Below, piece by piece: positions 6 to 61,039 of a DNA stretch of 64,000 nucleotides. The notes under the pieces were generated by a model that worked only from the letters and a program-made list of their open reading frames with translations, did not search any database and was not told where the DNA came from. Each line of letters starts with the position of its first letter. The stretch's first letter is position 1. A program made the translations under genes and the position numbers. Location of the stretch: assembly GCA_951406725.2 (NCBI GenBank), contig OX597829.1, positions 21,948,001 to 22,012,000 of the forward strand, given 5' to 3'. The DNA comes from Octopus vulgaris. Its lineage: Eukaryota.

Positions 6-66
<61 letters not shown>

Positions 67-73
<7 letters not shown>

Positions 74-430
74 TTAGAGACAAAACCACTATTATGCAAA
101 TCAAACAAAGAAAGACTTAAGCCAATACATAAAATAATTTATATAATTAAATTTAATTAAAATAACCACTACGATCGTTTCGTGTCAGCACTTCTATGAG
201 ACATTCTTCAGGTGGTTTCAAAACCTTCTTTGCAAATTTTAAACTATGAGTTCATAAATTTAATTATATAAATTATTTTATGTATTGGCTTAAGTCTTTC
301 TTTGTTTGATTTGCATAATAGTGGTTTTGTCTCTAATTTAATATAATATAATATTTTACTATAAAATTGGATTCAATCCTAAATCTGATTTTTCCCTGTA
401 AATTTGGATTCATTCCCTAATATTTATTAT

Positions 431-432
<2 letters not shown>
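67..432 (-). mobile_element. Penelope-like element remnant: about 90-bp inverted repeats around a hammerhead ribozyme, inserted in (TA)n
   Basis: 67-155 is the reverse complement of about 255-341, with a hammerhead at 164-217 between them. The terminal block (gatttttccctgtaaatttgg...) recurs inverted at about 47806-47913. Both sides are (TA)n. Confidence 0.65.
164..217 (-). ncRNA. Minimal type-I hammerhead ribozyme (canonical C3-G8 core)
   Basis: Minus strand reads AACCAC-CUGAAGA-A-UGUC(loop)GACA-C-GAAA-CGAUCG-UA-GUGGUU. Stem I is a perfect 6 bp, stem II is 4 bp, stem III is the palindrome ACGAUCGU, and the triplet is GUA. Confidence 0.85.
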
Positions 433-477
<45 letters not shown>

Positions 478-18769: not shown

Positions 18770-20166
18770 GTGTCATTGTCGTCATCGTCGTTTAACGTCC
18801 ACTTTCCATGTTGGCATGGGTTGGACAGATTAACCAAGGACTGGCAACCCAGAAAGCTGCAATCTGATCTGGCAAGGTTTCTGCAGCTGGATGCTCTTCC
18901 TAATGCCAACCACTCCAAGAGTGTAGTGGGTGCTTTTTACATGCCACTGGCACAATGGCCAGGCAGGCAGCACTAGCAACAACCACACTCAAATGGTGCT
19001 TTTTACGTGCTTCTAGCATAAGGGCCAGTCAGGCAGCACTGGCAACAACCATGCTCAAATGGTGCTTTTTACGTGCTTCCAGCATAGGGGCCAGTCAGGC
19101 AGCACTGGCAACAACCACGCTCAGATGGTGCTTTTTACGTGCTTCCAGCATAGGGGCCAGTCAGGCAGCACTGGCAACAACCACACTCAAATGGTGCTTT
19201 TTACGTGCTTCCAGCATAGGGGCCAGTCAGGCAGCACTGGCAACAACCACGCTCAGATGGTGCTTTTTACGTGCTTCCAGCATAGGGGCCAGTCAGGCAG
19301 CACTGGCAACAACCACGCTCAAATGGTGCTTTTTACGTGCTTCCAGCATAGGGGCCAGTCAGGCAGCACTGGCAACAACCACGCTCAGATGGTGCTTTTT
19401 ACGTGCTTCCAGCATAGGGGCCAGTCAGGCAGCACTGGCAACAACCACACTCAAATGGTGCTTTTTACGTGCTTCCAGCATAGGGGCCAGTCAGGCAGCA
19501 CTGGCAACAACCACGCTCAGATGGTGCTTTTTACGTGCCTCCAGCATAGGGGCCAGTCAGGCAGCACTGGCAACAACCACGCTCAAATGGTGCTTTTTAC
19601 GTGCCTCCAGCATAGGGGCCAGTCAGGCAGCACTGGCAACAACCACGCTCAAATGGTGCTTTTTACGTGCCTCCAGCACAGGAGTCAGTCAGGCAGCACT
19701 GGCAACAACCATGCTCAAATGGTGCTTTTTACGTGCTTCCAGCATAGGGGCCAGTCAGGCAGCACTGGCAACAACCATGCTCAAATGGTGCTTTTTACGT
19801 GCTTCCAGCATAGGGGCCAGTCAGGCAGCACTGGCAACAACCATGCTCAAATGGTGCTTTTTACGTGCCTCCAGCACAGGAGTCAGTCAGGCAGCACTGG
19901 CAACAACCATGCTCAAATGGTGCTTTTTACGTGCCTCCAGCATAGGGGCCAGTCAGGCAGCACTGGCAACAACCACGCTCAAATGGTGCTTTTTACGTGC
20001 CTCCAGCATAGGGGCCAGTCAGGCAGCACTGGCAACAACCATGCTCAAATGGTGCTTTTTACGTGCCTCCAGCACAGGAGTCAGTCAGGCAGCACTGGCA
20101 ACAACCATGCTCAAATGGTGCTTTTTACGTGCTTCCAGCATGGGAGCCAGACAGGCAGCACTGGCA
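18770..20166 (-). mobile_element. RTE 3' UTR containing a 57-bp minisatellite expanded to about 21 copies
   Basis: RTE terminus at 18770-18950, then the unit gccagtcaggcagcactggcaacaaccacgctcaaatggtgctttttacgtgcttccagcataggg from 18955 to 20166. Confidence 0.85.
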
Positions 20167-21714
20167 ATTTTGTGGGGAGGGGATCAACTCAATTACATTG
20201 ACCTCTAGTACTTGAAAGGTACTTTATTTTCTTGAGCCCAAAAGGACGGAAGGCAAAGTTAACTTCAGTAGAATTTGAACTCAGGACATAGAATGCTGGA
20301 AGAAATTCCACAAAGCATTTTGTCTGGCAAAGTAAACAATTATGCCCTCTCGCCACCTTGCACAAGTTTAATAATGAAAATGTTAGTTATTACACTAAAT
20401 CCATTGAAATTATTAATTACACTGGGTAACATGATTTTTGTCCTTGTGTAGCAACTGTTCTTTCCTATTTGCTTATCCCTAGAAAGTATGAAAAATGGTT
20501 AACATTTCCTTCAAACTTTGCTTTTGTTACATTTATTCAAACCTAAAGAATCCTTCTCAACACGTGGCAATGATGCTCCCCAACTCCTCCTGCTGATGAT
20601 CAGATGCACATATTATCAGCCATTGAGGGATATGCTCAAGTGGTTACGGTCAAGCAACTGACAAGTAAATCAGTGGTACTGAGCAGAATATTTTGCAATA
20701 ACAATATTTCTGCTTCAGCAATTCAGTGCTGAATCTGTCTGAAATGTAATGGATTATAGATCAGTTTCAAAACAGTGATGCTCAGATATTTCATAAACAA
20801 AATATGTGTTTGTTTATGAAATATCACAGCTTGCAGTACTGGCTCTGTATTCTGTAGAAAAACTGAGAACATGACACTGCTAACACTTGGTGAGACACGG
20901 TATTGACTTGTAAATTTGTAATATACTTGGCAGTATATCATGGTTGCAAAACAAAATATTGTACAGTTGCCAACAATTAGTAGCTGTAATTTAGAGGATT
21001 GGTTTTAATTCACTGATCCTGCCTGAGAATTACATTAAATAAACAAGTGCCTTTGGAATACTCAGCCAGTCACATCAATGGGTAGAATTTTCTCTCAAGT
21101 GAACATCTGCTACTTTCATTTTCTATATTGATTCAGGATCTACTATGCATGTATGTATATCTGTGTTTGTGTGTTTATGTTCATGTGAGCATCTGTTGTT
21201 TGTGAATTTATGTAGTGACTCTTAATCTCTAGAGAAAAATAAGTAATGGGTATATATACATATTTATATAATGCATATCATGGGTGTAGAGAAAAATTTT
21301 CTATAACCTTTGAAATGTGCATATACACTCGTTACCTACTACTGTCTTTTTAGCAGATCCAGTGACCTTTTAATATCCACCTTTTTAATATCAACCATTT
21401 TAATATCCATGCCATATCCCAAACCTGGATTTTCGTTTTTTAGTGGGTGGCACCAAAAAAAGTAAAACACATGTTAATTGAAGAAAAATTTATCATATTT
21501 ATAAAGGAAAGACAATTGGGAGTGGGGGCCACTGGAAGGAAGTTTGAGGGTCTCGTGCAGCCCTGAGAACCACAGTTGAGAAATGCTGATGAAGAGTATT
21601 CCTTGGTGACATTTTAATATTTTATTGTTGAAACTAAATCAGAAGCTTGATTCTATTTATTTTGTTTCCATGTATTTCTGTAAGAATTTACCTTAAAAAC
21701 TTTTCCAATTTTAA

Positions 21715-30659: not shown

Positions 30660-31905
30660 TTTCTACTTTCTCTTTTATTCTCTTATACTTGTTTCAGTCA
30701 TTTGACTGTGGCCATGCTGGAGCACTGCCTTTAGTCGAGCAAATCGACCTCAGGACTTAATCATTGTAAGCCTAGTAGGATCTTTTCCTTTTGAACGACA
30801 CTTTTCAACACAATTTCTAGTTAACTAAACACTTTTAAACTTCGTATACTGGTAGAATGTGTTTATAAAACATCATTTTTTCTTGGCTGTATTGAGAAAA
30901 TTCTATAGGTTGTAACATATTTCGTTTTTAATTTCGAGCATTTTGACAATTTTAACTAATTGCTGGAGTCCATTTAGGTAAATAACATTCTGTGCATAAT
31001 GAATATGTTCCTCCTTTAAGAAACAGATTGGGTTTATTTACATTTGTGAAGAAAAAAATATCCTTCCCCCACCCCTAACCTTAACTCTAACTCTAACCCT
31101 AACTAACCCTAACTCTCACCCTAAATCTAAAATAGATTGAAATGCAATAGATCAATACTCGGGCCATAATTATGGGTGACAATTTTATACGACACCGCTA
31201 CGGAAAATGGGATTTTTTTCTAGTGGTGTCAAATGAAAATGTCACCCATAATTATGGCCCTAGTATCGATCTATTGCATTTCAATCTATTTTAGATTTAG
31301 GGTTAGGGTTAGTTAGGGTTGGGGAAGGGTATTTTTTTTTCTTCACAAATGTAAACCCAATCTGTTTCTTAAATGAGGGACATATTCATACAGCACTGGA
31401 GGTAATTGATTGGTTAAAATTGCCGAAATGCTTGAAATTAAAGACAAAATATCTTACAACCTATAGAATTTTCTCAATAAAGCCAAGAAAAAATGATGTT
31501 TTATAAACACATTCTACCAGTATACGAAGTTTAAAAGTGTTTAGTTAACTAGAAATTATGTTACAAAGTGCCATTCAAAAGGAAAAGATCCTACTAGTAC
31601 TTATTCTATCGGTCTCTTTTGCCGAACCGCTAAGTTACCGGGATGTCAAGCAATGTTGGGGGTGGAAAACACAGACACACAAACATATCCACACACACAC
31701 ACACATATATATATACATACACACACACACACATATATATACGACAAGCTTCTTTCAGTTTTCATCTACCAAATCCACTCACAAGTCTTTGGTCCGCCTG
31801 AGGCTATAGTAGAAGACACTTGCCCAAGGTGTCCCGCAGTGGGACTGAACCCAGAACCATGTGGTTCGTAAGCAAGCTACTTACCACACAGCTACTCCTA
31901 TGCCT
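30660..31905 (-). mobile_element. SINE family B interrupted by a foldback element
   Basis: Tail at 30660-30775, with body and head at 31594-31905. Confidence 0.8.
30776..31593. mobile_element. 818-bp foldback DNA element with CTAG TSD and internal telomere-like repeats
   Basis: About 400-bp inverted arms (taggatcttttcc...ggaaaagatccta). CTAG is duplicated at 30772-30775 and 31594-31597 relative to the intact SINE sequence gcCTAGtactt. Confidence 0.85.
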
Positions 31906-32700: not shown

Positions 32701-34066
32701 GTTGCAGTGGAAGGGGCTGAAACACCTACAGAGCTGTTTCATCACCTGATGAAATATCAACTCGTGCATTCAGAGATGGAACACAGCAGCAACTTCAACA
32801 AATAAATGTTTATTTTAAAATGTTAATTAAATATCAACACTTGATGTACAATTTGCTAAATTTCTTTAAGCCATCTGTGATATCAACTAAACCTCTCTCT
32901 CCTTAAAATCATTGTTCTTGTGCTTAGATTAGAAACTTTTAAAATTATACAAACAAAGGAGAACCTATTGTGCCATTATTTTTTTCTTTTTTCTCATTCA
33001 GTAAAAGTGTCCAAGTACCACCATTGCCTGAAGACTCAGCCAATGTACCAGGAAGTATTGACCAGAATCAGTTCGAGTAAGAAAAAGAAAACTGTTCAGT
33101 AAATTTAACATAATTGTTTAATGTTCATCAATTATTCGAAAAAAAATTTTTTTTTTACATATATATATATATATAAAATTAGTCAATGGATAAAGGCAAT
33201 GTCTGTGAATTGTGGAAGTTTTATTCTGAAGCCACTGAGATATTTTCAATTGCTCTGCTGGGTTGGAACAGTAAGAAGCTACATTACATTTAGTTAGTTA
33301 GTTAGTTAATTTTTGGGCTCAAAAAGTAAAAAGCAAGGCCATGTAGGGGGACATGGAGTTATGTATAGGGTGGTGTTCATGTAAAGAGTTCAGGATGTAA
33401 ATGATGGTGAGAGTGGATAGACATGAAATAGAAAACTTGAGATGAGGTTTGTTGAGTGCATACAATCTAAAGTTGGAAATGAGGTACGCAAAAAACATAA
33501 TAACATTTCTTCTAGTGGGAGTCTTGCTTAGAGAGTCACCTAGGCTGAGGTATTGAGGACAGGAGAACTCTCCAATTTGGGAAGCAGGGAACCTTGCATC
33601 CTATGCAATGCACAGAGGCAGTAGTCTTGCAGATGTTGCAGTGGTGAATAACTTTTTCCCTATGTATTATGGGAAGTGATGCTATGCTGCCTGCACAGCT
33701 CTGGATAAACAACTTGGGGCTTGTGGAATGGGGAGGTTAAATGGCTTCAGATGTGTGATAAATGTGAAGTGAGGTGCCTAGGAGGAGGATATCATTCACA
33801 CACTTGTCTCAGATGAGTCAAAATTGAAACATTTTCTATAATGAATAACCAGCTTTAAGCTTTTTAACTGTTTAGCATTCAGATTATACTGTCAAATGTA
33901 ATGTTTGTTTATTCATATTATTCATATTGCTTTGAATTATCATGCATTATCTCATAGCTTCAAGATTTCAATGACATGATCGTTTAGTTTTAAAATGACA
34001 TTATAGGGTTAAGGCGAGAGGCCAGATCTGGCCTATTTCAGCATAAAACATGCTAAATATCCTGTT

Positions 34067-34331
34067 GTGTCTGGGGAGAGTCATTTTCTTTTTGTGCCTT
34101 ATTATATAACACACTCACCGGTAAAATTTCCACTTTTTTCTTATTTTTATTTTCCTAAAATTTTCGTTGCGTCTCGCAACCTTTTCAAGAGTCAAGACTA
34201 TTGAAAGGGTTGCAAGACGCAACAAAAACTTTAAGAAAATAAAAATAAGATATAAGTGGAAATTTTACCGGTGAGTGTGTTATATAATAAGGCACAAAAA
34301 GAAAATGACTCTCCCCAGACACAACAGGATA
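34067..34331. mobile_element. About 125-bp perfect-style hairpin (inverted duplication) carrying a U3-A8 hammerhead variant in each arm
   Basis: atatcctgttgtgtctgggg...ccccagacacaacaggatat. The left arm on minus reads UUGAAAA-GGUUGC(GAGAC)GCAAC-GAAA-AU-UU-UAG. Inserted in a piggyBac-like MITE. Confidence 0.65.
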
Positions 34332-34807
34332 TGCTTCAACACACAAACTCATATAAAGAATCTTGCAAACCAAATCCAAAAATCCAAAAACGAAACATGC
34401 TAAATAGTTTGGCCAGATGTGGTTGGTTTGGATGCAAAAGGGTTAAACAAGTTATATCCAGCAGAAATATTCTACCTGTTTTATACTGAAATCAACCAGA
34501 CCCAGATTCTCACAGCTACCTTGCAATGTCATCTTAAAAATAAACAGTTACATCATCAAAATCTCAAAGCTACGAAATAATGCATGAATTGTTCAAAACA
34601 AATTGAATATATGAGCATTACACATGACAGAGTAATCTGAATGTAAAAGGTTTAAACAGGATGACAGTTAACTGACTTCAAAATTAGAGTCCTGAGGTGA
34701 GTCATATGATAGGAAGATGTGAGGTGGCTCTTTATCACTTTTTTTTTTACAAATCTCAATCATTCCATTTTGATCATGACTGTGATCACTTGGTTAATTT
34801 AATGCCT

Positions 34808-35830: not shown

Positions 35831-36949
35831 TTTTAAAAAAGGAAACCTTTGTATCTGGGTGACAGAACAATTCTCCTGAATAAGATTATAATTGTTTTGT
35901 GTGTCTACTTCTAGTTTCTGAAATTCATATATCTATTGCTTCAACTGGTCATTCTTCAGATGTTTTAGTTCAGTAGTAATAAGACACCTATTGACAATAG
36001 TTCAAACCAATCCTTGGTTAGTCATCTGAATTGCATTAACAAAATCTAAACCTAGACATTTTAGACATTTAATTCTCCCATGCTTAACAAAAATGCTGGT
36101 ATAAGAGCATTTGATGTTTAAATGATAAATTGCTAGGATCAAATTTCCCTATTTCTCCTGCAACAACAGTATTATTAACTGCAAGCGTTAGCAGTCTTTT
36201 TCTAAGTAAACCCTTGCTTTAGTGATTTTATAACACACAAAATAAACTTTTAGAATTCACTTTAATTCAGTTCATGAAGTGTCAAATTTTTCATCCACTT
36301 TAACCTGAGCACAGCGGAAATGTGTCAGTGACCAAGTCATGGTTGAGCAATGGAAATAGGAAAAATTTTGATTCTTCATGAAATAATAATTTAGCAATCT
36401 GTATATCTTACTTAACATGGCTATTCTTTAAGAATGCCAAAATACCACAGTGTTCTAGCACAGTGTTAAAAAGCAAAGAAATATATCAAAATGAGATGCT
36501 TTCTCAAGACGAATACTGCAGTATCATGGTGTTCTTACAGTACATCCACATCAAATAAGTAGGATATAGAGATTACTATTTGGTACTAACACTGCTTTGT
36601 TGCTAATAACTGAATGTTAGTTTCATTAAACATTTTTGTGTGCTATCAAATGGGTAGAATGGCCGTACTTCTATCATATAATTGCTATAACGATCTAGAT
36701 CAGTGGTTCTCAACTGGGGTCCATATAAAATTTTTGTGTTTGGTGGATGGGAGTGGGGGCATACCAGTAAAATAATAAACTGGGGATCCACATTAGTATT
36801 CTATTGGTCCATTAAAAAAACTTGCTTTAGATGTATTTAATGTAAGAAACAGCAAAGTTTCTTTCTCTGATGTTTTACATAGCTAAACCTACACATGTGA
36901 ACATGTGTAAAACAAAATAGGAATTTTGAAAGAAATATTTATAAAACTA

Positions 36950-37153
36950 CGGAGATGTACTTGCATAGCAAGTGATTTGATCTGAGATCATGTGCTGAAA
37001 CAAAAACAATTGCAGCATGGCAGGTGTTTGTAAGCCATTTAAGAAACACACAAAAGCCGTTTGATTCACTTCAACATTTAAGTTTAATTTGTCAAAATAT
37101 TTTCATCGCTTTAAGACCGCGACCTGTTCACTGACAAAAATCCATGCTGCATC
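36950..37153 (-). mobile_element. 204-bp hammerhead-containing retro-insertion
   Basis: 11-bp TSD ttataaaacta at 36939-36949 and 37154-37164, inside the hAT MITE. Confidence 0.75.
37088..37138 (-). ncRNA. Minimal hammerhead ribozyme, G3-C8 variant
   Basis: UUUGUCA-GUGAACA-GGUCGC(GGUCUUAAA)GCGAU-GAAA-AUAU-UU-UGACAAA. Stem I is 7 bp, stem II is 5 bp and stem III is the palindrome AAUAUU. Confidence 0.75.
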
Positions 37154-37769
37154 TTATAAAACTAGTTTTTAAACATCGAATGACTATGGGTCCACTAGAA
37201 TAAAATAGTAATCAAGGGGGTCCATAGATTAAAAAAAATGGTTGAGAACCTCTGCTTTAGATGTATGTATTGGTATGTATTGCAAGAAACAAGTAGGTTT
37301 CTTTCCCTGATATTTTACATGATTCAACCAACACAAGTAAAATAGGAATCTTGAAAGAAGCTTCCATAAAACTAGTTTTTAAAACATTGAATGGTTATGA
37401 GGGTCCACCAGAATAAAATAATCAAAGGGGTCCATAGGTGAAAAAATGGCTGGGAACCACTGATCTAGATTAATTACAATAAAGATTTTTTTTTTTAAAA
37501 AAAGAAGGAAAAGTGAGTAAGAACTAATAAAAAGCTGTTCAATTTACAGCTTTCCTTTGGTAATGTGTTAGTCTGTCTTTGCCATAGGATTTGGAAGCTC
37601 AGTCAAGGAGGATTCACTGAGAGTAAGACTATAAACAATTTGCAGTTAATATTTTCTTTTGCTGCATGTAGAATTAGAGATATTTGATCCAAGGATTTTA
37701 TTTCTCGAGATATTCAATATTCTTACGCAAGTACAACTCTGAAATAGATCTTTGTGGTTGGCCAACATG

Positions 37770-42132: not shown

Positions 42133-43841
42133 TCATCATCATTTAGCGTCTGCTTTCCATGCTGGCATGGGTTGGATGGTTCAACTGGGGTCTGTGAAGC
42201 CAGAAGGCTGCATCAGGCCCAGTCTGATCTGGCAGTGTTTCTACAGCTGGACGCCCTTCCTAACGCCAACCACTTCGTGAGAATAGTGGGTGCTTTTTAC
42301 GTGCCACCCGCACAGGTGCCAGACGGAGCTGGCAAACGGCCACGATCGGATGGTGCATTTTACGTGCCACCCGCACAGGTGCCAGACGGAGCTGGCAACG
42401 TCCACGAACGAATGGTGCTTTTTACGTGTCACCGGCACGGAGGCCAGTGGGGGCGGCGCTGCCAACGGCCACGATCGGATGGTTCGCTTACTTGTCACCG
42501 GCACTGGTATCATAGCTGCAATTTCCATTGATGTTGATCGACTTCGATTTTGGTTCTGCTTTCTGATATCTGATTTGATTTGGTTTGATTTGATTTTCAC
42601 TTGCCTCAACGGGTCTTCACAAGTGGTGTTTTGTGTCCCAAGAAGGAAAGGTATGTATAAGTCGACTGGCTACATACCAGGTAGAGGCCACGGGTTATGG
42701 TCTCATTAGTTTTGCCGGGTCATCTCACGCACAGAATACTTCCATAGGTCTCAGTCTCTAGTCATTTCCTTGGTGAGACCTAAAGTACGGAGGTCGTGCT
42801 TCACCACCTCGTCCCAGGTTTTCCTGGGTCTACCTCTTCCATGGGTTCCCTCAACTGCTAGGGTGTGGCACTTTTGCACACAACTATCTTCAGCCATTCT
42901 CGTCACATGACCATACCAGCGCAAACGTCTCTCTTGCACACCACAACTGATGCTAGGTCCAACTTTTCTCTCAAGGTACTTACACTCTGTCGATTATGAA
43001 CACTGACATTACACATCCATCGGAGCATACTGGCTTAATTTCTTGCGAGCTTACGCATATCCTCAGCAGTCACAGCCCATGTTTCACTACCATGGCTGTA
43101 CGTACACATGCATCATACTGTCTGCCTTTTACTCTGAGCGAGAGGCCTTTTGTCACCAGCAGGGGTAAGGGCTCTCTAAACTTTGCCCAGGCTATTCTTA
43201 CTCTAGCAGTTACACTTTCAGCACACCCACCCCCGCTACTGACTTGGTCACCTAGGTAGCGGAAGCTATCAACTACTTCTAGTTTTTCTCCCTGGAACGT
43301 GGTATAAGTTGGTCTCTGCACATTTTCAGTGTTTATTGCTCCTGAGCATCTGCCACAGACAAAAACTATTTTCCTAGTTAGCCTTCCTTTGACATTGCTG
43401 CACCTCTTATGTATCCATAGCTTACACTTGGTGCACTTTATAGAGTTTCTACCTACACCTTTTTTACAGATCGAGCAGGGCCATCTACCTGAAGGCGTTT
43501 GTGATTGGTCTACCTTCCTACTTATTAGGACTTTGGTTTTGGCTAGGTTGATTCTAAGGCCCTTCGATTCTAAACCTTGCTTCCACACCTGAAACTTCTC
43601 CTCCAGTTCTGATAGTTACTCAGCAATTAGAGCAAGGTCATCAGCATAGAGGAGCTATGTCTTGAATTCCTCTGTTATTGCCTGGGGGACTATGATAAAT
43701 AGGAGAGGACTGAGGACTGAACCTTGGTGGACCCCAACCTCTACTTGGAATTCTTCATTGTACTCGTTGCTAACCCTCACCTTACTAGCAGCGTCTCTGT
43801 ACATGGCTTGCACAGCTCTCACTAACCATTCATCTATCCCT
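42131..43841 (-). mobile_element. RTE-clade LINE, 5'-truncated pseudogene
   Basis: GVHQGSVLSPLLF, LYADDL, FRYLG, RRLRWYGHVTRM and GRGRPRKTW motifs, plus a 3' UTR and (GAT)n tail. Confidence 0.92.
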
Positions 43842-43890
43842 AGTATATATATACATACATATATACAGGTATATATATACATACATACAC

Positions 43891-43921
<31 letters not shown>

Positions 43922-43950
43922 CATATATACACACACATACACGTATATAT

Positions 43951-44437
43951 AGGTAACGGAACCTATCAACTACTTCTAGTTTTTCTCCCTGGAATGTGGT
44001 GGAAGTTGTTCTCTGCACAGTGTCAGTGTCTATTGCTCCAGAGCATCTGCCACATACAAAAACTATCTTCCCAGTTAGCATTCTTCCTTTGATATTGCTG
44101 CACCTCTTATGTGTCCATTGCTTACACTGGGTATATCTTATGGAGTTTCTACCTACGCCTTTTCTACAGATCGAGCAGGGCCATCTACCTGAAGGTATTT
44201 GTGGTTTGTCTGCCTTCCTACTTATTAAGACTTTGGTTTTAGCTAGGTTGACTCTAAGGCCCTTCAATTCTAATCCTTGCTTCCACACCTGAAACTTCTC
44301 TAGTTCTGATAGTGACTCAGCAATTAGAGCAAGGTCATCAGCATAGAGGAGCATCCTATCTTGAATTCCTCTGTTATTGCCTGGAGGACTATGATGAACA
44401 AGAGGGGGCTGAGGACTAATCCTTGGTGGACCCCTAC
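43951..44437 (-). mobile_element. Second RTE RT fragment, paralogous to about 43250-43740
   Basis: LLYADDLALIAESLSEL...WPCSICRKGVG...EVVDRFRYL. Confidence 0.88.
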
Positions 44438-44489
44438 CACACATACACACACACACACATATATATACACACATACATACATACACATA

Positions 44490-44967
44490 TAGAGATGATA
44501 AGAAATGGAACAATAATTAACAATGAGGAGTGAATCATTAGTGTTTTAAAGTCATTATTTAATTGATTAGAAGTATGTTTACACCTGTTTCTATTTATCA
44601 AAATTTGCAGTTACCTCATCACAATTGATAAACACCATCAGAAAGATTATATGGCAAAAATAAAATAGAAAGAAAGAAAAAAAAATGTTAATCCAATAGT
44701 CTTCCATTTTAGTAACTTACATAGTTCCATGTATCGATGTATTACCTCAGTATGTATGGTCCTTGTTATAAGGTATACAGTAGTAGGTAATTTAAAAGTA
44801 AAACCATGGTTGAGTGGGTGTGGTAAGTAGCTTGTTTACCAACCACATGGTTCCGGGTTCAGTCCCACTGCGTGGCACCTTGGGCAAGTGTCTTCTACTA
44901 TAGCCTCAGGCCAACCAAAGCCTTGTGAGTGGATTTGGTAGACGGAAACTGAAAGAAGCCCGTTGTA

Positions 44968-47705: not shown

Positions 47706-47777
<72 letters not shown>

Positions 47778-48309
47778 TATATATATACATATATATATAT
47801 ATACATAATAAATATTATGGAATAAATCCAAATTTACAGGGAAAAAATCAGATTTAGGATTAAATCCAATTTTATAGTAAAATATTATATAATATTAATT
47901 AGAGACAAAACCACATATAACTAAGTATATATAACCATATCTAAATACATACACTAACTCACACACCTATATATATATCCCTATACATACACATAAAAAC
48001 GTCTAGGCAACGATAAATAAATAAAATAGCCAAATACTTCAACACAATACTTATTCATACTCCCTCACACACACATACAACCCACATTCATAAACAATAT
48101 ACGTATACCCGCTCACACATACATATACAAACATACAGAACTCGATATATACACCAATATATTCACACCCACATCTATACAGATAAATAAATTACGCAAA
48201 CAATCACACACACACACACACACATTCACACATACATAAACACTCAAAAGAAAAATAAACAATTCTTTGCACGTGGTGATCGAACGTTTTTTATAAAAAA
48301 TTATGAATG

Positions 48310-52568: not shown

Positions 52569-52749
52569 TCCATGCATATATGGGTACAGGACATCACCAA
52601 TGGTGCAAATAACATGAAGTACATAAACAAATGAGTGAAATATATAAACAATGAGAAAAAATGGAAAACAGGACAAATAAACACAGAGAAAGACCCTTCC
52701 TCAGTTGTTGGCTGTCTATCTATGATTTTATATATAAATATATATATAT

Positions 52750-53637
52750 GGGTCAGGCTACATCGGACATCCCAAACATACATATTGGAGGCCACAGATT
52801 ACAAGAGGTGGAGAAGTTTACCTATCTTGGCTCTACCGTCACCTACAACCTATCCCTTGATGCTGAGCTCAATATACGCATTGGCAAGGCAGCTGCTGCG
52901 ATGGCCCAACTCTCCAAACGGGCGTGGGACAATAAGCTCACCAAGACCACGAAAATGAAGATCTACCAGGCATATGTACTTAGCTCTCTACTGTATGGAA
53001 GTGAGACTTGGACGCTATACACACGCCAAGAGCGTCGCCTAAACATCTTTCACCTGCGCTGCCTCCGGAAAATCCTCCGCATGAAATGGCAGAATCATAT
53101 CCCCAATAAAGATGTCCTCAAGCAAGCAGGAATACCAAGCATGTTTGCACTCCTCACACAAAGACATATGAGATGGCTTGGACATGTTAGCCGTATGAAA
53201 GATGGCAGAATCCCCAAGGACATACTCTACGGAGAGCTTGCTAGGGGTACTAGGTCTGTGGGTAGACCGTTCTTACATTACAAGGATGTTTGCAAAAGGG
53301 ACATGTAGGCCTGCAACATCAATATTAGCGGTTGGGAGGCAGTTGCCAGCAACCGTGGAGATTGGCGACGTACCGTAAAAGAGGGAATACAAAGGCGTGA
53401 CAGAGAGAGAGAGAGGAGAAATGGAAAGACAAGAAAAGATGTCAACAAGAAACTATAGCATTACAACCAGCCAGGAACAGTCTTCGCTACATTTGCAGTA
53501 CCTGCCAGAGGGAGTGTTTGTCCAGGATAGGACTACACAGCCACAGCAGGAAATGTATCAGGACATGAAATGTAAAAGTCGGACTAGACTATTTTATGCG
53601 CAACTCCATTGTATCCCGAGACAAAAAGGATGCCAAA
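52750..53637 (+). mobile_element. BovB-like RTE LINE 3' fragment
   Basis: LQEVEKFTYLGSTV...LLYGSETW...MRWLGHVSRMKDGRIPKDILYGEL, a C-terminal CSTCQRECLSRIGLHSH zinc finger and a short UTR. Inserted in (TA)n. Confidence 0.9.
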
Positions 53638-54497: not shown

Positions 54498-54521
<24 letters not shown>

Positions 54522-54526
<5 letters not shown>

Positions 54527-55120
54527 CATAAATGAGGGCAAGGGAAAAAAATTTCTAATGCCAAATTTGCCGAAAAATTGGACATATTGTCCATTAACCA
54601 TATAATTTTTTCACAATACACACGCTACTCGAAAAAAGGTCGACAGAAATTTCTAAAAAGTTCCATTATTACCATATCGGACTCATACCCATGGGTATGA
54701 GTAAGTATCTCATTTATTTCTTTTGCCACATGTATCACTGACGAAGAGAGGGCTCTTAGTAGCTAACTCTGAAATCGGTCCGATATGGTAATAATGGAAC
54801 TTTTTAGAAATTTCTGTCGACCTTTTTTCAAGTAGCGTGCGTATTGTGAAAAAATTAATGGTTAATGGACAATATGTCCAATTTTTCGGCATATTTGGCA
54901 TTAGAAATTTTTTCCTTTGCCCTCATTTATGAATTGTTTATAAATTTAACCGTTAAAGGTATTTTTTAATATGCTGGCCATTGATAAGATTTTTTTCGAG
55001 AAAATATTTTTTTTCGAAAAGAATTTTATCCTCACATTTGATATATATATAGTATTTCTAAATTGAATTTTTTCCCTGTAAGTTAGGATTAATATTCCCT
55101 CAAATAATTATTATTATATA

Positions 55121-55152
<32 letters not shown>

Positions 55153-55215
55153 TATTATTTGAGGGAATATTAATCCTAACTTACAGGGAAAAATTCAATT
55201 TAGAAATACTAAATC
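54522..55215 (+). mobile_element. Penelope-like remnant with inverted repeats of about 160 bp and about 65 bp
   Basis: 54522-54682 is inverted at 54778-54937, and about 55050-55115 is inverted at 55147-55211 across (TA)n. A hammerhead lies at 54732. Confidence 0.65.
54732..54786 (+). ncRNA. Minimal hammerhead ribozyme (C3-G8 core)
   Basis: GUAUCA-CUGACGA-AGAG...CUCU-GAAA-UCGG-UC-CGAUAU. The triplet is GUC, with one mismatch at the base of stem I. Confidence 0.7.
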
Positions 55216-55721
55216 AAATTTCACACAATATAATATATATATATATAAAATTAGAAAGAACCAGTTTTTATCAATTCAAAATGAACAATTAAATTACACC
55301 ATCTAGAAAATTACATATAATAGAAATATTAAAATTAAAATAACAATAAAATACTAATGATTAAGTAAAATGCAAAAAAAATAATAAAAACGTACATAAT
55401 TGGTAGAATAAAAACACGGGTTTCGTGGCTATATTTAAGAAATGATTATAGTAAAAAAAGTAGCTTATCAAACCCATGCCAGTATGCAAAGAGGGATGTA
55501 AAATTACGACAATAATGATAATAAAATGATAATAAAATATGTGCATTATTGAAGTAACTATACATTACTACACATTTCACACATGCCCCATGCAGTCCTC
55601 TACCGTTCTTAGTCGTATGCCACCACACGTCATACACGACCACAAGACCTCTGTATAAACACAAACACACATCTTATAAAATCCTCTATACTCACTTTCA
55701 CATGCTAGATAATCGACACAA

Positions 55722-56013
55722 TTACTTTTTTCTCAGGTTTGCAGTGCTACCAGAATTCACGTTAGCAGACTGAGTGGAAATAGCACTGTGAGGCCTTGTA
55801 TTTGGAACTGGCTTTTTTGACTTCTCTTTCGTAGTTTTGCTCGTTACATTTTCCTTTGGTCGAGTAGCAGGGCCTTTAGCTGCTTGTTCTTTCGGTTTCC
55901 TTTCCGTACACTCAGTCCTGGGAGTTACTTCTCTGTTTTGAGAACACATTGCTTTTAACATTTTTGCCAATGCTACAGGATGCACGCCCATTTGAAGTAA
56001 ATCCCATAAAATT
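55722..56013 (-). CDS. MZT2: Mitotic-spindle organizing protein 2 (MOZART2)-like exon; upstream exon not found in the window
   Basis: taatttcag acceptor, phase 2. ILWDLLQMGVHPVALAKMLKAMCSQ aligns with MZT2 ILVDLLKLNVAPLAVFQMLKSMCAG and is followed by a basic disordered tail. Confidence 0.8.
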
Positions 56014-57082: not shown

Positions 57083-59180
57083 TGCTAAACAATTGAGATA
57101 TTATAGGGAGTAAAGTGTGTGTGGATGGATAATGGTGTGCTTGCACTTAATGATGTGGACAAGAAAGAGGTATAGAAAAGTTACTATGCAAGACTGTTGA
57201 ATGTAGAGAATGAATGGGATAAAGAGAGTCTCCCTCATATGAACCCAACAGAGGGACTAACTATCCTAGTGGACAGCAGTATGGTAGATAAGGCAATTAA
57301 AACCATGAAAATCAGGAAAACCCCTGGTCCATCTGGAATCATGACTGAGATGCTCAAAATATCTGCAAAGGTAATGTATGGGCTAGTCATCTGCATAGTT
57401 AATTAGGTTATTCAGGAAGATGTAATACCCAGTGACTGGTATAGCAGCCTAATTGTTAGCTGCTACAAGGGCAAGGGTGATGCTTTAGATAGAAACAATT
57501 ATAGAGGCATCAAACTCCTGAAGCAGGTGATGAAAATTACAAAGAGAGTTATAGCCCAATTAATTAGGAGCAGGATTAGGCTAGATGAAATGCAGTTTGG
57601 CTTCATCCAGAGAAGAAGCACTACTGATGCTATTTTCATGGTCAGACAACTGCAAGAGAAGTACTTAGCTAAGAATGAGCCAATATACTTGGCATTTGTT
57701 GATCTAGAGAAGACCTTTGATAGAGTGCCCCGCTGTATGATATGGTGGGCACTGAGGAGGTTAGAGATAGAAGAGTGGCTGGCGAAAGCTGTACAGGCCA
57801 TCTACAAAGACACTGTCAGTAAAGTGAGAGTTAACCACGAGTACAGCAAAGAATTTGGTTTACATGTAAGGGTTCATTAAGGCTCAGTCCTTAGTCCCCT
57901 CCCTTTCATCATTGTCCTCCAGGCCATAACAGAGGAATTCAAGGCTGGCAGCCCCTGAGAATTACTATATGCTGATGACCTTGCCCTCATAGCAGACTCC
58001 TTATCAGAGCTAGATGAGAAATTCCAGGTGTGGAAGCAAAACCTGGAATATAAAGGCCTTAAAGTTAACTTGGCAAATACTAAGGTCCTAGTAAGCAAGA
58101 AAACTGACAGGACTCTACTTCACTCAAGTAGGTGGCTCTGTTCAGTTTGTAGGAAAAGTATAGACAGAAACTCAATATGGTGTATCCAGTGTAAACTATG
58201 GACACACAAGAGGTGCAGCTGATCATTAGGAAAGTTGTCAAAGAAGATAGTTTTTGTATGTGGAAGATGCACAGGATCTATAAAAACTTTAGAAACTCAG
58301 GAGGTAGTAGATAATTTCTGCTTCCTAGGGGACCAAATTGATGCTGGGGAGGATGTACAGAGTGTGTGTGATAGCTAGAATAAGAATAGGATGGAGAAAA
58401 TTCAGAGAGCTGTTGCCTCTGTTGCCCACAAAAGGCTTCTGTCTCCGAGTGAAAGGAAGATTGTATGATGCATGTATACAGACAGTAATTCTACATGGTA
58501 ATGAGACAAGGGCCTTGAATGCAGAGAATATGCAAAAGTTAGAAAGGAATGAGGATAGTATGCTCAGCTGGATGTGGAATGTAAGTGTACATGTTCAACA
58601 GAGTATTAGTGTTTTGAGAGAGAAGTTAGGCATAAGAGAAATTAGTTGTTGTGGGCAAAAGAGGGGACTGTGTTGGTTTGGTTATGTGATGCGGATGGAC
58701 ATCCACAACTTCATAAAGAAGAGCCAATCTCTCAAAATAGATGGAACATGTGGAAGTGGGAGATCCAGGAAGACATGGGATGAAATGCTGAAGAGTGACC
58801 TAAGGACACTGAACCCTTAAGGTGAGATGACAAAGGACCAAGATGCCTGGCACCTTGCTGTACTCAAGAAGACCTGTATTCTGCAGCAGAAGTGTTAAGA
58901 TTGGTCCCTCTGGTGGTGTAAAGCACTTGTGACAGCACCATATAAAGCACCCATGCAGTGCCACATAAAAGCACCTATGCAGTGTCACATAAAAGTGCCC
59001 ATGAGGTGCCATACAAAAGCATCCAGCACACTCTATGAAGTGGTTGGTGTTAGGAAGAGCATCCAGCTGTAGAAACCATGCCAAGGCAGACTGGAGTCTC
59101 GTGTAGTTTCCCAGCTTGCAAGTTCTGGTCAAACTGTCCAACCCGTGCCAGCATGGACAACAGATATTAAGTGATGATGA
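57080..59180 (+). mobile_element. RTE-clade LINE, decayed
   Basis: KTPGPSGI, NYRGIKLL, QFGF...STTDAIF, AFVDLEKTFDRVP, LYADDL, a PHD-like insert, a 3' UTR and a GAT tail. Several stops. Confidence 0.92.
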
Positions 59181-59906
59181 TATATAAAAAAAATATATAT
59201 AAAAGCTATGTACATAAACATGCATATACATATGTGTGTGTATACACACACACATGCACACACATATACAATGGATTCGTTTCAGTTTCCATCTACCAAA
59301 TCCACTCACAAGGCTTTGATTGGCCCAAGTTTGTAATAGAAGACTTGCCCAAGGTTCCACGCAGTGGGACCGAACACAGAACCATTTGGTTGGGAAAGCA
59401 GTGATATTGTTGACCTTTTTCTCTCTCAATAAATTATCTGCTGGCTCACCACATTCAAAAGCACAAGGAATAAGAGATTATTTATTTGAAAATGTCGTAA
59501 AAGTTGGTAATAGGATATGCTTGAAAGATCAGATAGAATTCCGTGAGGTAGATTTTTTACAACCAGATGTGCTTCCTACCTCCAATCTCTTACTTGTTTC
59601 CAAGCAAGGTAATATTTTCCCAAGGTCAGACATCTTCTCATGGAAAAGTGGAAAAGGACTCTGCTTGTATGATGGTGGTGCTTGTTTACAACTATAGCAA
59701 GACAAGGACACAAACAAACACGTGTATGTATGTATGTATCTATGTGTAAATATAATGAACAATAACAAGTACAACACAGGACACAGATCATGTCATCTAG
59801 CCAGCTGGAGACGAAGGCTAAATTACAGCAACATTCATCCTAAACCAGGACTGGCAAAAATCTTTACTCTAGGAGGAACAAAAGCAAATATCTTAACGAT
59901 TTAATG

Positions 59907-60430
59907 CAGTGTTTCTCAACCATTTTTATCACTGGACCCCTTTGGTTACTATTTTATTCTGGTGGGTCTCATAGCCATTTAATGTTTAAAACCTAGTTTT
60001 ATAGATACTTCTTTCAAAATTTTTATTTTGTTTTTCACACATTATCTTGTGTAGGCTGAACTATGTAAGACTACAATAAATACCAATACATACATATAAA
60101 GCAAAGGTTCTCAACCATTTCTTTTATCTATGGACCCTTTTGATTACTAATTTATTCCGGTGGACCCCATAACCATTCAATGTTTAAAAACTAGTTTTAT
60201 AGAAATTTCTTTCAAAATTCCCATTCAACTTGTGTAGGTTGAACTATGTAAAAAGAAACCCAGCAGAAAGAAACCCAGCAGTTTTTTGTAATACATGCAT
60301 TTAAATCAAACTTTACATGGACACTTAAACTACTATTGTGGTTCTCCAAGTTGCTATTTTGCTAGTGTGGATCCGCATAAATCTCACATGGACTTCCATG
60401 GTGTCATACGGACCTAATAGGGAACCACTG
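59907..60430. mobile_element. hAT MITE, same family as 36701-37462 in the opposite orientation
   Basis: TIRs cagtgtttctcaacc / gggaaccactg, with 8-bp TSD atttaatg. Confidence 0.85.
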
Positions 60431-61039
60431 ATTTAATGGAAAGGCAAAGTATCTTAATATTAGGTCTTTATCAGAAGAAAGAGAAGGAAATGCAGAGGGA
60501 GTAAGAAATAGGAATGGTCAGTGTGAGAAAAGAAAAAGGAGGTGAAAGGTTAGAAACCAGGGCAGAATGTTGTTCCATGGGGGAAAAAAAAACCAAACAG
60601 GATAGACTCATACGGCTGGTTTTCCAGTTTCTGTGCTGTATATATTCCCCCACTGGATGGGGTGCCAATCCATCGCGGGGTTATTTGTTTTTGCCTGCTG
60701 AGTGGACAGGAGCAACGTGAAATAAAATGTTTTATTCAAGAAAATGCACCACCTGGACCAGGATTCGAAACCACATTTTTATGATCATAAGTCCAACACA
60801 TTAACCATTAAGCCATACACCTCCACAAGAGGGGAGAAGAGTTAAGATGGGGGAGAGGTGAGCATGAATAGTTGCATCTATGTCTGGAAGTGTGTATAAG
60901 GGAGAAACTGTGAGTGTGTGAATGTTTCAGCATGGTGTATGCACAGAAGTTTTGAGATTTTTTGGAAGAGGTAGTTACAACTGTCCTAGACTGTCGTAAT
61001 TTTAGTATATTATTAATATACATCTAATAAGCTGCCCTG

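What the first reader, a model, noticed from the sequence alone, without database searches (positions are those of the whole stretch)
36939..37164. Discrete 204-bp ribozyme insertion with an 11-bp target-site duplication
The insertion sits inside a hAT MITE whose sister copy at 59907 lacks it, so its boundaries are exact. It has no ORF, no poly(A) and no TIR. It contains the G3-C8 hammerhead and a short inverted repeat (tgcagcatgg at 37011 / ccatgctgca at 37142). This looks like a retrozyme-like monomer integrated by target-primed reverse transcription.
Basis: partly seen in the sequence, partly recalled or inferred. Interest (0 to 1): 0.7.

Follow-up and report, generated by a model that had tools for sequence, protein, structure and literature searches.

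The report
Octopus hammerhead-bearing mini-retroelement family
This is one copy of a very abundant, roughly 210-base octopus repeat with fixed ends that carries a hammerhead ribozyme motif with a swapped core pair, and it was likely pasted in by the enzyme of a Penelope-like jumping gene rather than copied from a circular RNA.

Summary
The insertion is real. It is 204 bp between exact 11-bp repeats, inside a MITE whose sister copy lacks it. It carries a minus-strand type I hammerhead motif (G3-C8 core, palindromic stem III) matched by 1 of 20,000 shuffles. The window is Octopus DNA.

Contigs from four runs show a high-copy dispersed family with a fixed 3' end (36948), a minor second 3' end 61 nt inside, and a family 5' end 7-9 nt beyond this copy. 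No head-to-tail joint was among the rows shown, ends are not permuted, and the circle folds no better than shuffles. Target-primed insertion is supported; the circular-retrozyme reading is not.

Best reading: a solo pseudo-LTR-like end module copied by a Penelope-like reverse transcriptase that starts internally. No parent open reading frame was linked. The duplication is 8-11 bp once microhomology is counted. The perfect 10-bp inverted repeat is imperfect in the family.

The kind is known. The distinctive feature is a G3-C8 core that appears family-wide, which I did not find reported as natural; one key paper was unreadable.

The parts
36950..37153 (-). 204-bp inserted copy of a high-copy non-coding repeat; hammerhead sense is the minus strand
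36939..36949 (+). left copy of target-site duplication (last two bases TA also align with family ends)
37154..37164 (+). right copy of target-site duplication (first base is also the family letter)
37088..37138 (-). type I hammerhead motif: stem I 7 bp (37138-37132 with 37094-37088)
   Evidence: pair probabilities 0.67-0.98
37125..37131 (-). first core box GUGAACA with G3-C8 in place of C3-G8
   Evidence: no variant listed at these positions
37105..37123 (-). stem II, 5 bp after a 1-nt bulge, 9-nt loop; G10.1-U11.1 here, G-C in the family majority
37095..37104 (-). GAAA box, palindromic stem III (37101-37096), U17; predicted cut after 37095
37011..37020 (.). inverted repeat, inner arm
37142..37151 (.). 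inverted repeat, outer arm; perfect only in this copy's lineage
36948..37008 (-). 61-nt 3' segment between the major (36948) and minor (37009) family ends, with two short perfect hairpins; candidate Penelope-type tail
   Evidence: table 7; tail reading is inference from PMC11167929
36701..37462 (+). host MITE with CAG ends and 8-bp duplication (36693-36700, 37463-37470); hAT label rests on these features and recalled knowledge
59907..60430 (-). sister MITE with empty site, own 8-bp duplication (59899-59906, 60431-60438), 77-82% identical in local matches

Best explanation
The insert is a slightly 5'-shortened copy of an abundant, dispersed, non-coding octopus repeat of about 210-215 bp with fixed ends and a G3-C8 hammerhead motif, and it was likely written into an AT-rich site by target-primed reverse transcription with the enzyme of a Penelope-like element, of whose pseudo-LTR end module it is likely a solo copy. 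Shown: the duplication, the empty sister site, the motif, many copies with unrelated flanks, and clustered ends. Inferred: an RNA starting near the family 5' end, or reading through it, is bound by a Penelope-type RT/GIY-YIG protein. The endonuclease nicks AT-rich DNA. Reverse transcription starts inside the RNA at one of two set places, 147 or 86 nt downstream of the ribozyme cut site, which gives a fixed 3' end with no poly(A). It runs through the uncut ribozyme and here stopped 7-9 nt short. An offset second nick gives the 8-11 bp duplication. Predicted: the ribozyme is weak as a monomer (G3-C8 core, 2-bp palindromic stem III, U17, G-U at the base of stem II in this copy) and cuts only as a dimer or with protein help, so cleavage does not set the ends.
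For: Copy number: summed contig depth over the insert reaches 2.1 million in X1 against 14-23 for the eight contigs listed, and mid-insert depth is 21-29 times the peak MITE bin in X1 and X2 (rough). Ends: 123 (X1) and 103 (X2) contigs leave at 36948 into mixed AT-rich flanks (agreement 0.46). 54 and 55 contigs leave at 37154 with a shared 7-9 letters and then mixed flanks. 10 contigs in X1 leave at 37009. 5 and 4 contigs in X3 and X11 leave at 37139, the outer edge of stem I. Ribozyme strand kept in the family: at 37105 the majority (93% X1, 91% X2, 67% X3, 74% X11) gives the G10.1-C11.1 pair. The 37092 variant keeps stem I as G-U on the minus strand only. None of the 19 listed rows inside the insert falls on the 17 core and stem III positions. 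Literature: Poseidon RT starts internally at two sites downstream of the hammerhead, cuts AT-rich DNA, uses uncut RNA, and C3G/G8C is partly active (PMC11167929). Penelope-type motifs have a base between 9 and 10.1, G10.1-C11.1 and a palindromic helix III, and are mostly dispersed singles (PMC4209133). An octopus Penelope-like family has its hammerhead about 100 nt from its 3' end, with U17 (PMC8557442 supplement). O. vulgaris has 190 Penelope-like families covering 6.83%, 31 with recent copies (PMC13282606). Two other hammerheads in this window sit in Penelope-type fold-backs beside (TA)n, about 102 and 149 nt from their ends.
Against: No link to an RT/GIY-YIG frame was shown: no assembly is held, and the loose ends do not continue into a shared longer sequence. 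The 61-nt interval exceeds the 30-40 nt tail in print. This copy has no inverted 5' partner and no tandem. The minor 3' end rests on 10 contigs of one run, and only 24 of 1,131 loose-end rows were displayed. In Poseidon the frame starts inside the hammerhead, whereas this element has no such frame. In the family the inverted repeat pairs better on the plus strand (two G-U) than on the minus strand (two mismatches), and one 3' hairpin pair behaves the same way. The ribozyme-strand reading does not explain that, though loss of CpG could. The depth profile does not prove 5' truncation, because both end bins fall steeply. Both family ends carry TA and an imperfect end complement, which a DNA-transposon reading also predicts.
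Confidence: 0.62

Rival explanations
1. Non-LTR retrozyme: tandem copies are transcribed, cut by the hammerheads to monomers, circularised, and the circle is reverse-transcribed into new sites.
For: Size (170-400 nt), low GC, type I hammerhead, long duplication and no promoter, LTR or poly(A) all fit PMC7229834. The ribozyme is intact inside the copy, as expected after copying across a ligation junction. TA at both family ends could be one junction base pair. Penelope-like elements are the proposed mobilisers of retrozymes, so the two readings share an enzyme.
Against: No head-to-tail joint in 15 of 233 joints and 12 of 317 spacer rows shown; ends are fixed, not permuted. Circular fold z = -0.74, with 54% of bases paired against 61% in shuffles. 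An intact ribozyme is also expected from uncut linear RNA.
Confidence: 0.1
2. A SINE-like element moved by a non-Penelope LINE (such as RTE), comparable to the hammerhead-bearing Schistosoma SINE-like repeats.
For: Dispersed copies, fixed 3' end, variable duplication and subfamily variants. Reverse-transcriptase fragments lie in the window (Pfam RVT_1 in 2 of 7 frames tested, one above the curated cut-off). LINEs of several clades are recently active in O. vulgaris.
Against: No tRNA head or A box; only a loose B-box-like match that family variants disturb. No poly(A) or repeat tail. The 3' 53 nt have no match longer than 14 bases elsewhere in the window, which is a small sample.
Confidence: 0.12
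3. A non-autonomous DNA element (TA-flanked MITE or Helentron-like) with degenerate terminal and subterminal inverted repeats that happens to carry a hammerhead; the 10-11 bp duplication arose in repair.
For: TA at both family ends. An 8-pair end complement, a subterminal inverted repeat and 3' hairpins. The Helentron layout is recalled, not tested.
Against: No true terminal inverted repeats. This copy lacks one end yet has a clean duplication. Several alternative ends exist. Conservation of the ribozyme core and stems implies an RNA stage.
Confidence: 0.12
4. Chance motif or assembly artefact.
For: Rfam finds no hammerhead here; the whole insert folds no better than shuffles (z -1.24).
Against: 1 of 20,000 shuffles. 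Exact duplication and empty site. A contig from another sample matches the left junction over 138 bases with 0 differences (X3 record 25). No listed contig spans the right junction.
Confidence: 0.02

Closest known systems
Pseudo-LTR end modules and dispersed hammerheads of endonuclease-positive Penelope-like elements (PMC4209133; PMC8557442; Poseidon mechanism PMC11167929)
   Same: Type I hammerhead with short palindromic helix III, base between 9 and 10.1, G10.1-C11.1, position 90-150 nt from the 3' end, AT-rich target, variable duplication, no poly(A), two 3' ends, dispersed single copies.
   Different: G3-C8 core (C3-G8 in 34 of 34 rows of the PMC8557442 motif table, whose search was built on the canonical descriptor; U3-A8 is the natural swap in PMC4209133 and PMC3088659). 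A shared 5' end rather than a visible run into a frame. Interval of 61 nt. No inverted partner in this copy. No parent shown.
Non-autonomous Penelope-like elements such as MRC1 of Chlamydomonas (PMC8557442, passage)
   Same: Non-coding, presumed moved in trans by a Penelope-like protein.
   Different: Those often form head-to-tail arrays with pseudo-LTRs, and most Chlamys families lack canonical hammerheads.
Metazoan non-LTR retrozymes (PMC7229834, PMC7761336)
   Same: Size, low GC, type I hammerhead, no coding frame, long duplication, proposed Penelope mobiliser.
   Different: Retrozymes are tandem repeats giving abundant self-paired circles; no tandem joint, permutation or unusual circular stability was seen here.
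Hammerhead-bearing SINE-like repeats of Schistosoma (review PMC6765202, passages)
   Same: Short non-autonomous retroposon with a hammerhead.
   Different: Those have a Pol III promoter and tandem organisation; neither was seen.

Membership tests
Type I hammerhead ribozyme | Core boxes N3-UGA-N-N8-A and GAAA...UH with a 3-8 pair and helices I-III | tested here: met
   3-8 pair is G-C
Type I hammerhead ribozyme | Match to an Rfam hammerhead model | tested here: not met
   the two C3-G8 motifs in the window were also missed at gathering level
Type I hammerhead ribozyme | Self-cleavage | not testable with these tools
   needs in vitro assay; engineered C3G/G8C is partly active
Penelope-like element end module | Hammerhead of Penelope-type architecture near the 3' end | tested here: met
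Penelope-like element end module | Linkage to an RT plus GIY-YIG frame | not testable with these tools
   no assembly; loose ends show no shared continuation
Penelope-like element end module | Optional 3' tail between two RT start sites | tested here: inconclusive
   ends at 36948 and 37009 (123 and 10 contigs in X1), 61 nt apart against 30-40 in print
Penelope-like element end module | Partial tandem or inverted 5'-truncated partner | tested here: not met
   absent at this locus; none among joints shown. Described as frequent, not obligatory
Penelope-like element end module | AT-rich target with variable duplication | tested here: inconclusive
   met for this one copy and flanks are AT-rich; duplications of other copies not measured
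Non-LTR retrozyme | 170-400 nt non-coding unit with type I hammerhead | tested here: met
Non-LTR retrozyme | Tandem repeats or permuted ends | tested here: not met
   0 of 15 shown joints (233 in all), 0 of 12 shown spacer rows (317 in all); fixed ends. Hidden rows leave rare arrays possible
Non-LTR retrozyme | Highly self-paired circular fold | tested here: not met
   64 of 300 shuffles as stable
Non-LTR retrozyme | Abundant circular RNA in tissue | not testable with these tools
   only contigs were available; no raw reads
tRNA-derived SINE | tRNA-like head with A and B boxes, simple-repeat tail | tested here: not met
TIR MITE | Terminal inverted repeats and fixed-length duplication | tested here: inconclusive
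   no true TIR in this copy, but the copy lacks the family's last bases and TA flanks both family ends

The most novel reading that the evidence does not exclude
A free-standing Penelope-dependent SINE equivalent: a roughly 213-nt unit with its own start site, its own master copies and no coding parent. It has reached thousands to tens of thousands of copies in several octopus species and has fixed a natural G3-C8 hammerhead, selected for a tuned-down or protein-gated cut. It would be a natural cargo RNA for a Penelope reverse transcriptase and a large natural dataset on what these ribozymes are for.
Probability: 0.3. Interest if true: 0.6.

Novelty: new variant of a known kind. Interest (0 to 1): 0.37.

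Why it matters
The job of hammerheads in Penelope-like elements is still stated as unclear (PMC8557442), and in the one reconstituted system cleavage is not needed for insertion (PMC11167929). A high-copy family that keeps both helices and an inverted but still paired 3-8 core suggests the fold is under selection. It gives a small, testable substrate for asking whether cleavage, dimer formation or protein binding is what matters. If the unit is moved in trans it also shows the minimal RNA a Penelope enzyme will accept. The insertion itself is an ordinary nested event.

Tried and rejected
Whole genome: not held, so no BLAST census. Rfam: nothing relevant. No second copy in the window (best local E 0.12).

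Pattern scans: viral contigs gave 0 hits for each of two patterns. Metagenomes gave 1 hit, L001, in a GC-rich bacterial coding stretch that I read by eye as an ATP synthase operon. Prokaryote genomes gave 3 hits. All four match only 23-37 bases around the pattern and were dropped as chance.

A plus-strand hammerhead (CUGAGA...GAAA near 36982-36999) looked possible by eye, but the descriptor found none. Cleavage site as the 5' end of copies: depth steps down to 0.60-0.75 across 37095, but no loose-end row is shown there, and contig overlap biases depth; not adopted. Expression: the insert-to-MITE depth ratio is lower in the two RNA-guess runs (6 and 3) than in X1 and X2 (21 and 29). Contigs cannot give level, strand or ends, so I draw nothing from this. 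A loose B-box-like match near 36982-36974 was rejected as likely chance. No notable similarity to the second hammerhead element beyond core letters. The 'terminal' and 'hp36958' rows were mis-registered and are ignored; the terminal pairing was redone. Stem III duplex energy alone is negligible (-0.2 kcal/mol), so dimer action rests on analogy. Three short motifs of this element were absent from the PMC8557442 supplement. The Lunse et al. paper on small hammerhead variants was not available.

Full report
Setting. An exon-like frame at 55725-56009 is 100% identical to a protein that NCBI names as Octopus sinensis mitotic-spindle organizing protein 2, and 82% to the O. bimaculoides one (2 hits of 4 candidates). 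The window is therefore Octopus DNA of that group. No assembly is held.

Observation. The 11-base repeat occurs twice in the window, at 36939 and 37154, enclosing 204 bp. The host element 36701-37462 and its sister 59907-60430 each have CAG ends and their own 8-bp duplication, and they align end to end with a gap at the insert. The hAT label rests on those features and on recalled knowledge. The insert has no ATG frame over 23 codons, no A run over 5, no tRNA and no Rfam family. A descriptor allowing any 3-8 pair finds one type I hammerhead on the minus strand: 7-bp stem I, core GUGAACA, one bulged base, 5-bp stem II, GAAA, palindromic stem III and U17. Stems I and II dominate the predicted ensemble. 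1 of 20,000 shuffles gave any hit and 0 of 20,000 an equal one. The 10-bp inverted repeat alone is marginal (249 of 5,000).

The family. 20 of 24 listed runs hold part of the 771-bp stretch, 11 of them half or more, from 10 studies, under four species labels plus one metagenome. I laid 4 of these on 36840-37260 at 85% likeness: X1 and X3 (organism A), X2 (B) and X11 (D). All are contigs, X1 may be the assembly's own source, and RNA status of X3 and X11 is a guess. 12,723, 11,300, 675 and 326 contigs were laid from X1, X2, X3 and X11, MITE parts included. Summed depth over the insert reaches 2.1 million in X1 against 14-23 for the eight listed contigs. The naive ratio is about 1e5, but overlapping short contigs inflate it, so I claim only thousands to tens of thousands of copies. 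More than 100 contigs with mixed flanks leave at one end position.

Ends. On the ribozyme strand the 3' end is sharp: 123, 103, 5 and 10 contigs leave at 36948 into mixed AT-rich flanks. A second 3' end at 37009 has 10 contigs in X1. At the 5' side 54, 55 and 2 contigs continue past 37154 with 7-9 shared letters ending in TA and then diverge, so this copy is short by that much. 5 and 4 contigs in X3 and X11 stop at 37139, one base outside stem I. Only 24 of 1,131 loose-end rows were displayed. Of 233 joints 15 were shown, and of 317 spacer rows 12. All 15 shown joints skip forward, 14 across the insert, and none of the shown rows joins the insert's end to its start. The tool keeps the best supported rows, and those shown have depths of tens to hundreds, so common arrays are unlikely while rare ones remain possible. 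One X3 contig matches the left junction over 138 bases without a difference. One X1 contig matches 37044-37151 with 1 difference and continues into 1,344 other bases, which suggests a young sibling copy.

Duplication length. About 90% of MITE depth has C at 36939, family contigs align to T37154, and they also align through TA at 36948-36949. The duplication is 11 bp as read, 10 most simply, and 8 at least.

What variation says. Of 51 variant rows 40 were shown, 19 inside the insert at 17 positions. None lies on the 17 core and stem III positions, so G3-C8 appears to be the family state, with 11 rows unseen. The majority at 37105 restores G10.1-C11.1, which PMC4209133 calls highly conserved. 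The 37092 variant keeps stem I only on the minus strand. Against a simple picture, the family letters at 37017 and 37144 turn two inverted-repeat pairs into mismatches on the minus strand and G-U on the plus strand, while 37021 adds a pair. Five of the family letters sit in CpG, so the perfect repeat here is probably a product of CpG loss (inference).

Mechanism. PMC11167929 (parts 1-2 of 4 read) shows that a Poseidon protein nicks AT-rich DNA and starts reverse transcription inside the RNA at two sites that bound the optional tail. It uses uncut RNA, needs protein for ribozyme cleavage, and keeps partial cleavage with C3G/G8C. The stem loop where it starts lies 111-118 nt into the frame and the cut at 26, about 85-92 nt apart. 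Here the two ends are 86 and 147 nt from the cut; the first match may be coincidence. Internal initiation explains a fixed 3' end with no poly(A) and an intact ribozyme in the copy without any circle. The shared 5' end could be a transcription start, since Penelope pseudo-LTRs hold the start site (passage), or a stall point. I could not tell a by-product of an autonomous element from a free-standing non-autonomous family.

Retrozyme test. PMC7229834 (parts 2-4 of 6) and PMC7761336 (passages) define animal retrozymes as tandem repeats yielding abundant, highly self-paired circles. Size and motif type fit. Tandem joints and permuted ends were not seen, and the circle is no more stable than shuffles on either strand (64 and 89 of 300 as good). 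Circular RNA itself was not testable.

What is in print. PMC4209133 (parts 1-2 of 4 and a term search of 2 supplementary files, one further file not searched) reports dispersed minimal hammerheads from Penelope-like elements and a natural U3-A8 swap. PMC3088659 (section 8) reports U3-A8. PMC8557442 (passages, supplement part 2 of 59 and term searches) lists octopus Naiad and Hydra families; its 34 motif rows are all C3-G8. PMC13282606 (part 1 of 3 and supplement search) gives Penelope content in O. vulgaris, and its supplement does not mention ribozymes. PMC3884650, PMC8495972 and PMC6765202 were read as passages; the first two mention G3-C8 only as an engineered variant. Searches for hammerhead with octopus or cephalopod, retrozyme with molluscs and G3-C8 spellings found no description of this family or of a natural G3-C8 core. 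That is weak evidence. The Lunse et al. survey of Penelope-associated variants could not be read, subscription journals and repeat libraries were not searched, and figures and unread supplements may hold it.

Earlier scan notes. Nothing was found by sequence or place. Five unchecked notes from other animal genomes describe short Penelope-type copies, some starting at the stem I edge. I saw them after forming this reading. They are leads, not support; the 37139 ends here are a small parallel.

Verdict. Target-primed insertion is likely; the circular retrozyme reading is not supported. It works like a Penelope-like end module; membership is unproven without a parent frame. New variant of a known kind, interest 0.37.

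Noticed in passing
window 54510-54948: Fold-back element with arms of about 170 bp beside a (TA)n run and a C3-G8 type I hammerhead (core at 54738, plus strand, long stem II region) at its centre; the inverted arm begins within stem III, near the cut site. Typical Penelope-like insertion.
   Followed up: partly
window 54-354: Second fold-back beside (TA)n with a C3-G8 hammerhead on the minus strand (core at 211, palindromic stem III), about 102 nt from the arm end; a different family.
   Followed up: partly
window 30772-31597, 34057-34332, 55047-55214: Further long palindromic elements with no hammerhead by my descriptor; the first carries several TAACCC-like repeats in both arms.
   Followed up: no
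window 36701-37462 and 59907-60430: Both MITE copies contain an internal duplication of about 210 bp, so each has two copies of the palindromic site into which the insert landed.
   Followed up: partly
window 305-461, 47756-47914, 55115-55280: A short AT-rich repeat that sits directly next to both hammerhead fold-backs and next to (TA)n runs.
   Followed up: no
window 43070-44516, 52655-53308, 57407-58820: Broken LINE-like coding fragments; Pfam RVT_1 and PHD matches in 3 of 7 frames tested.
   Followed up: partly
window 18904-20208: Tandem array of a 66-bp unit derived from a dispersed repeat that recurs many times in the window.
   Followed up: no
window 55725-56009: Exon of mitotic-spindle organizing protein 2 on the minus strand.
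   Followed up: partly
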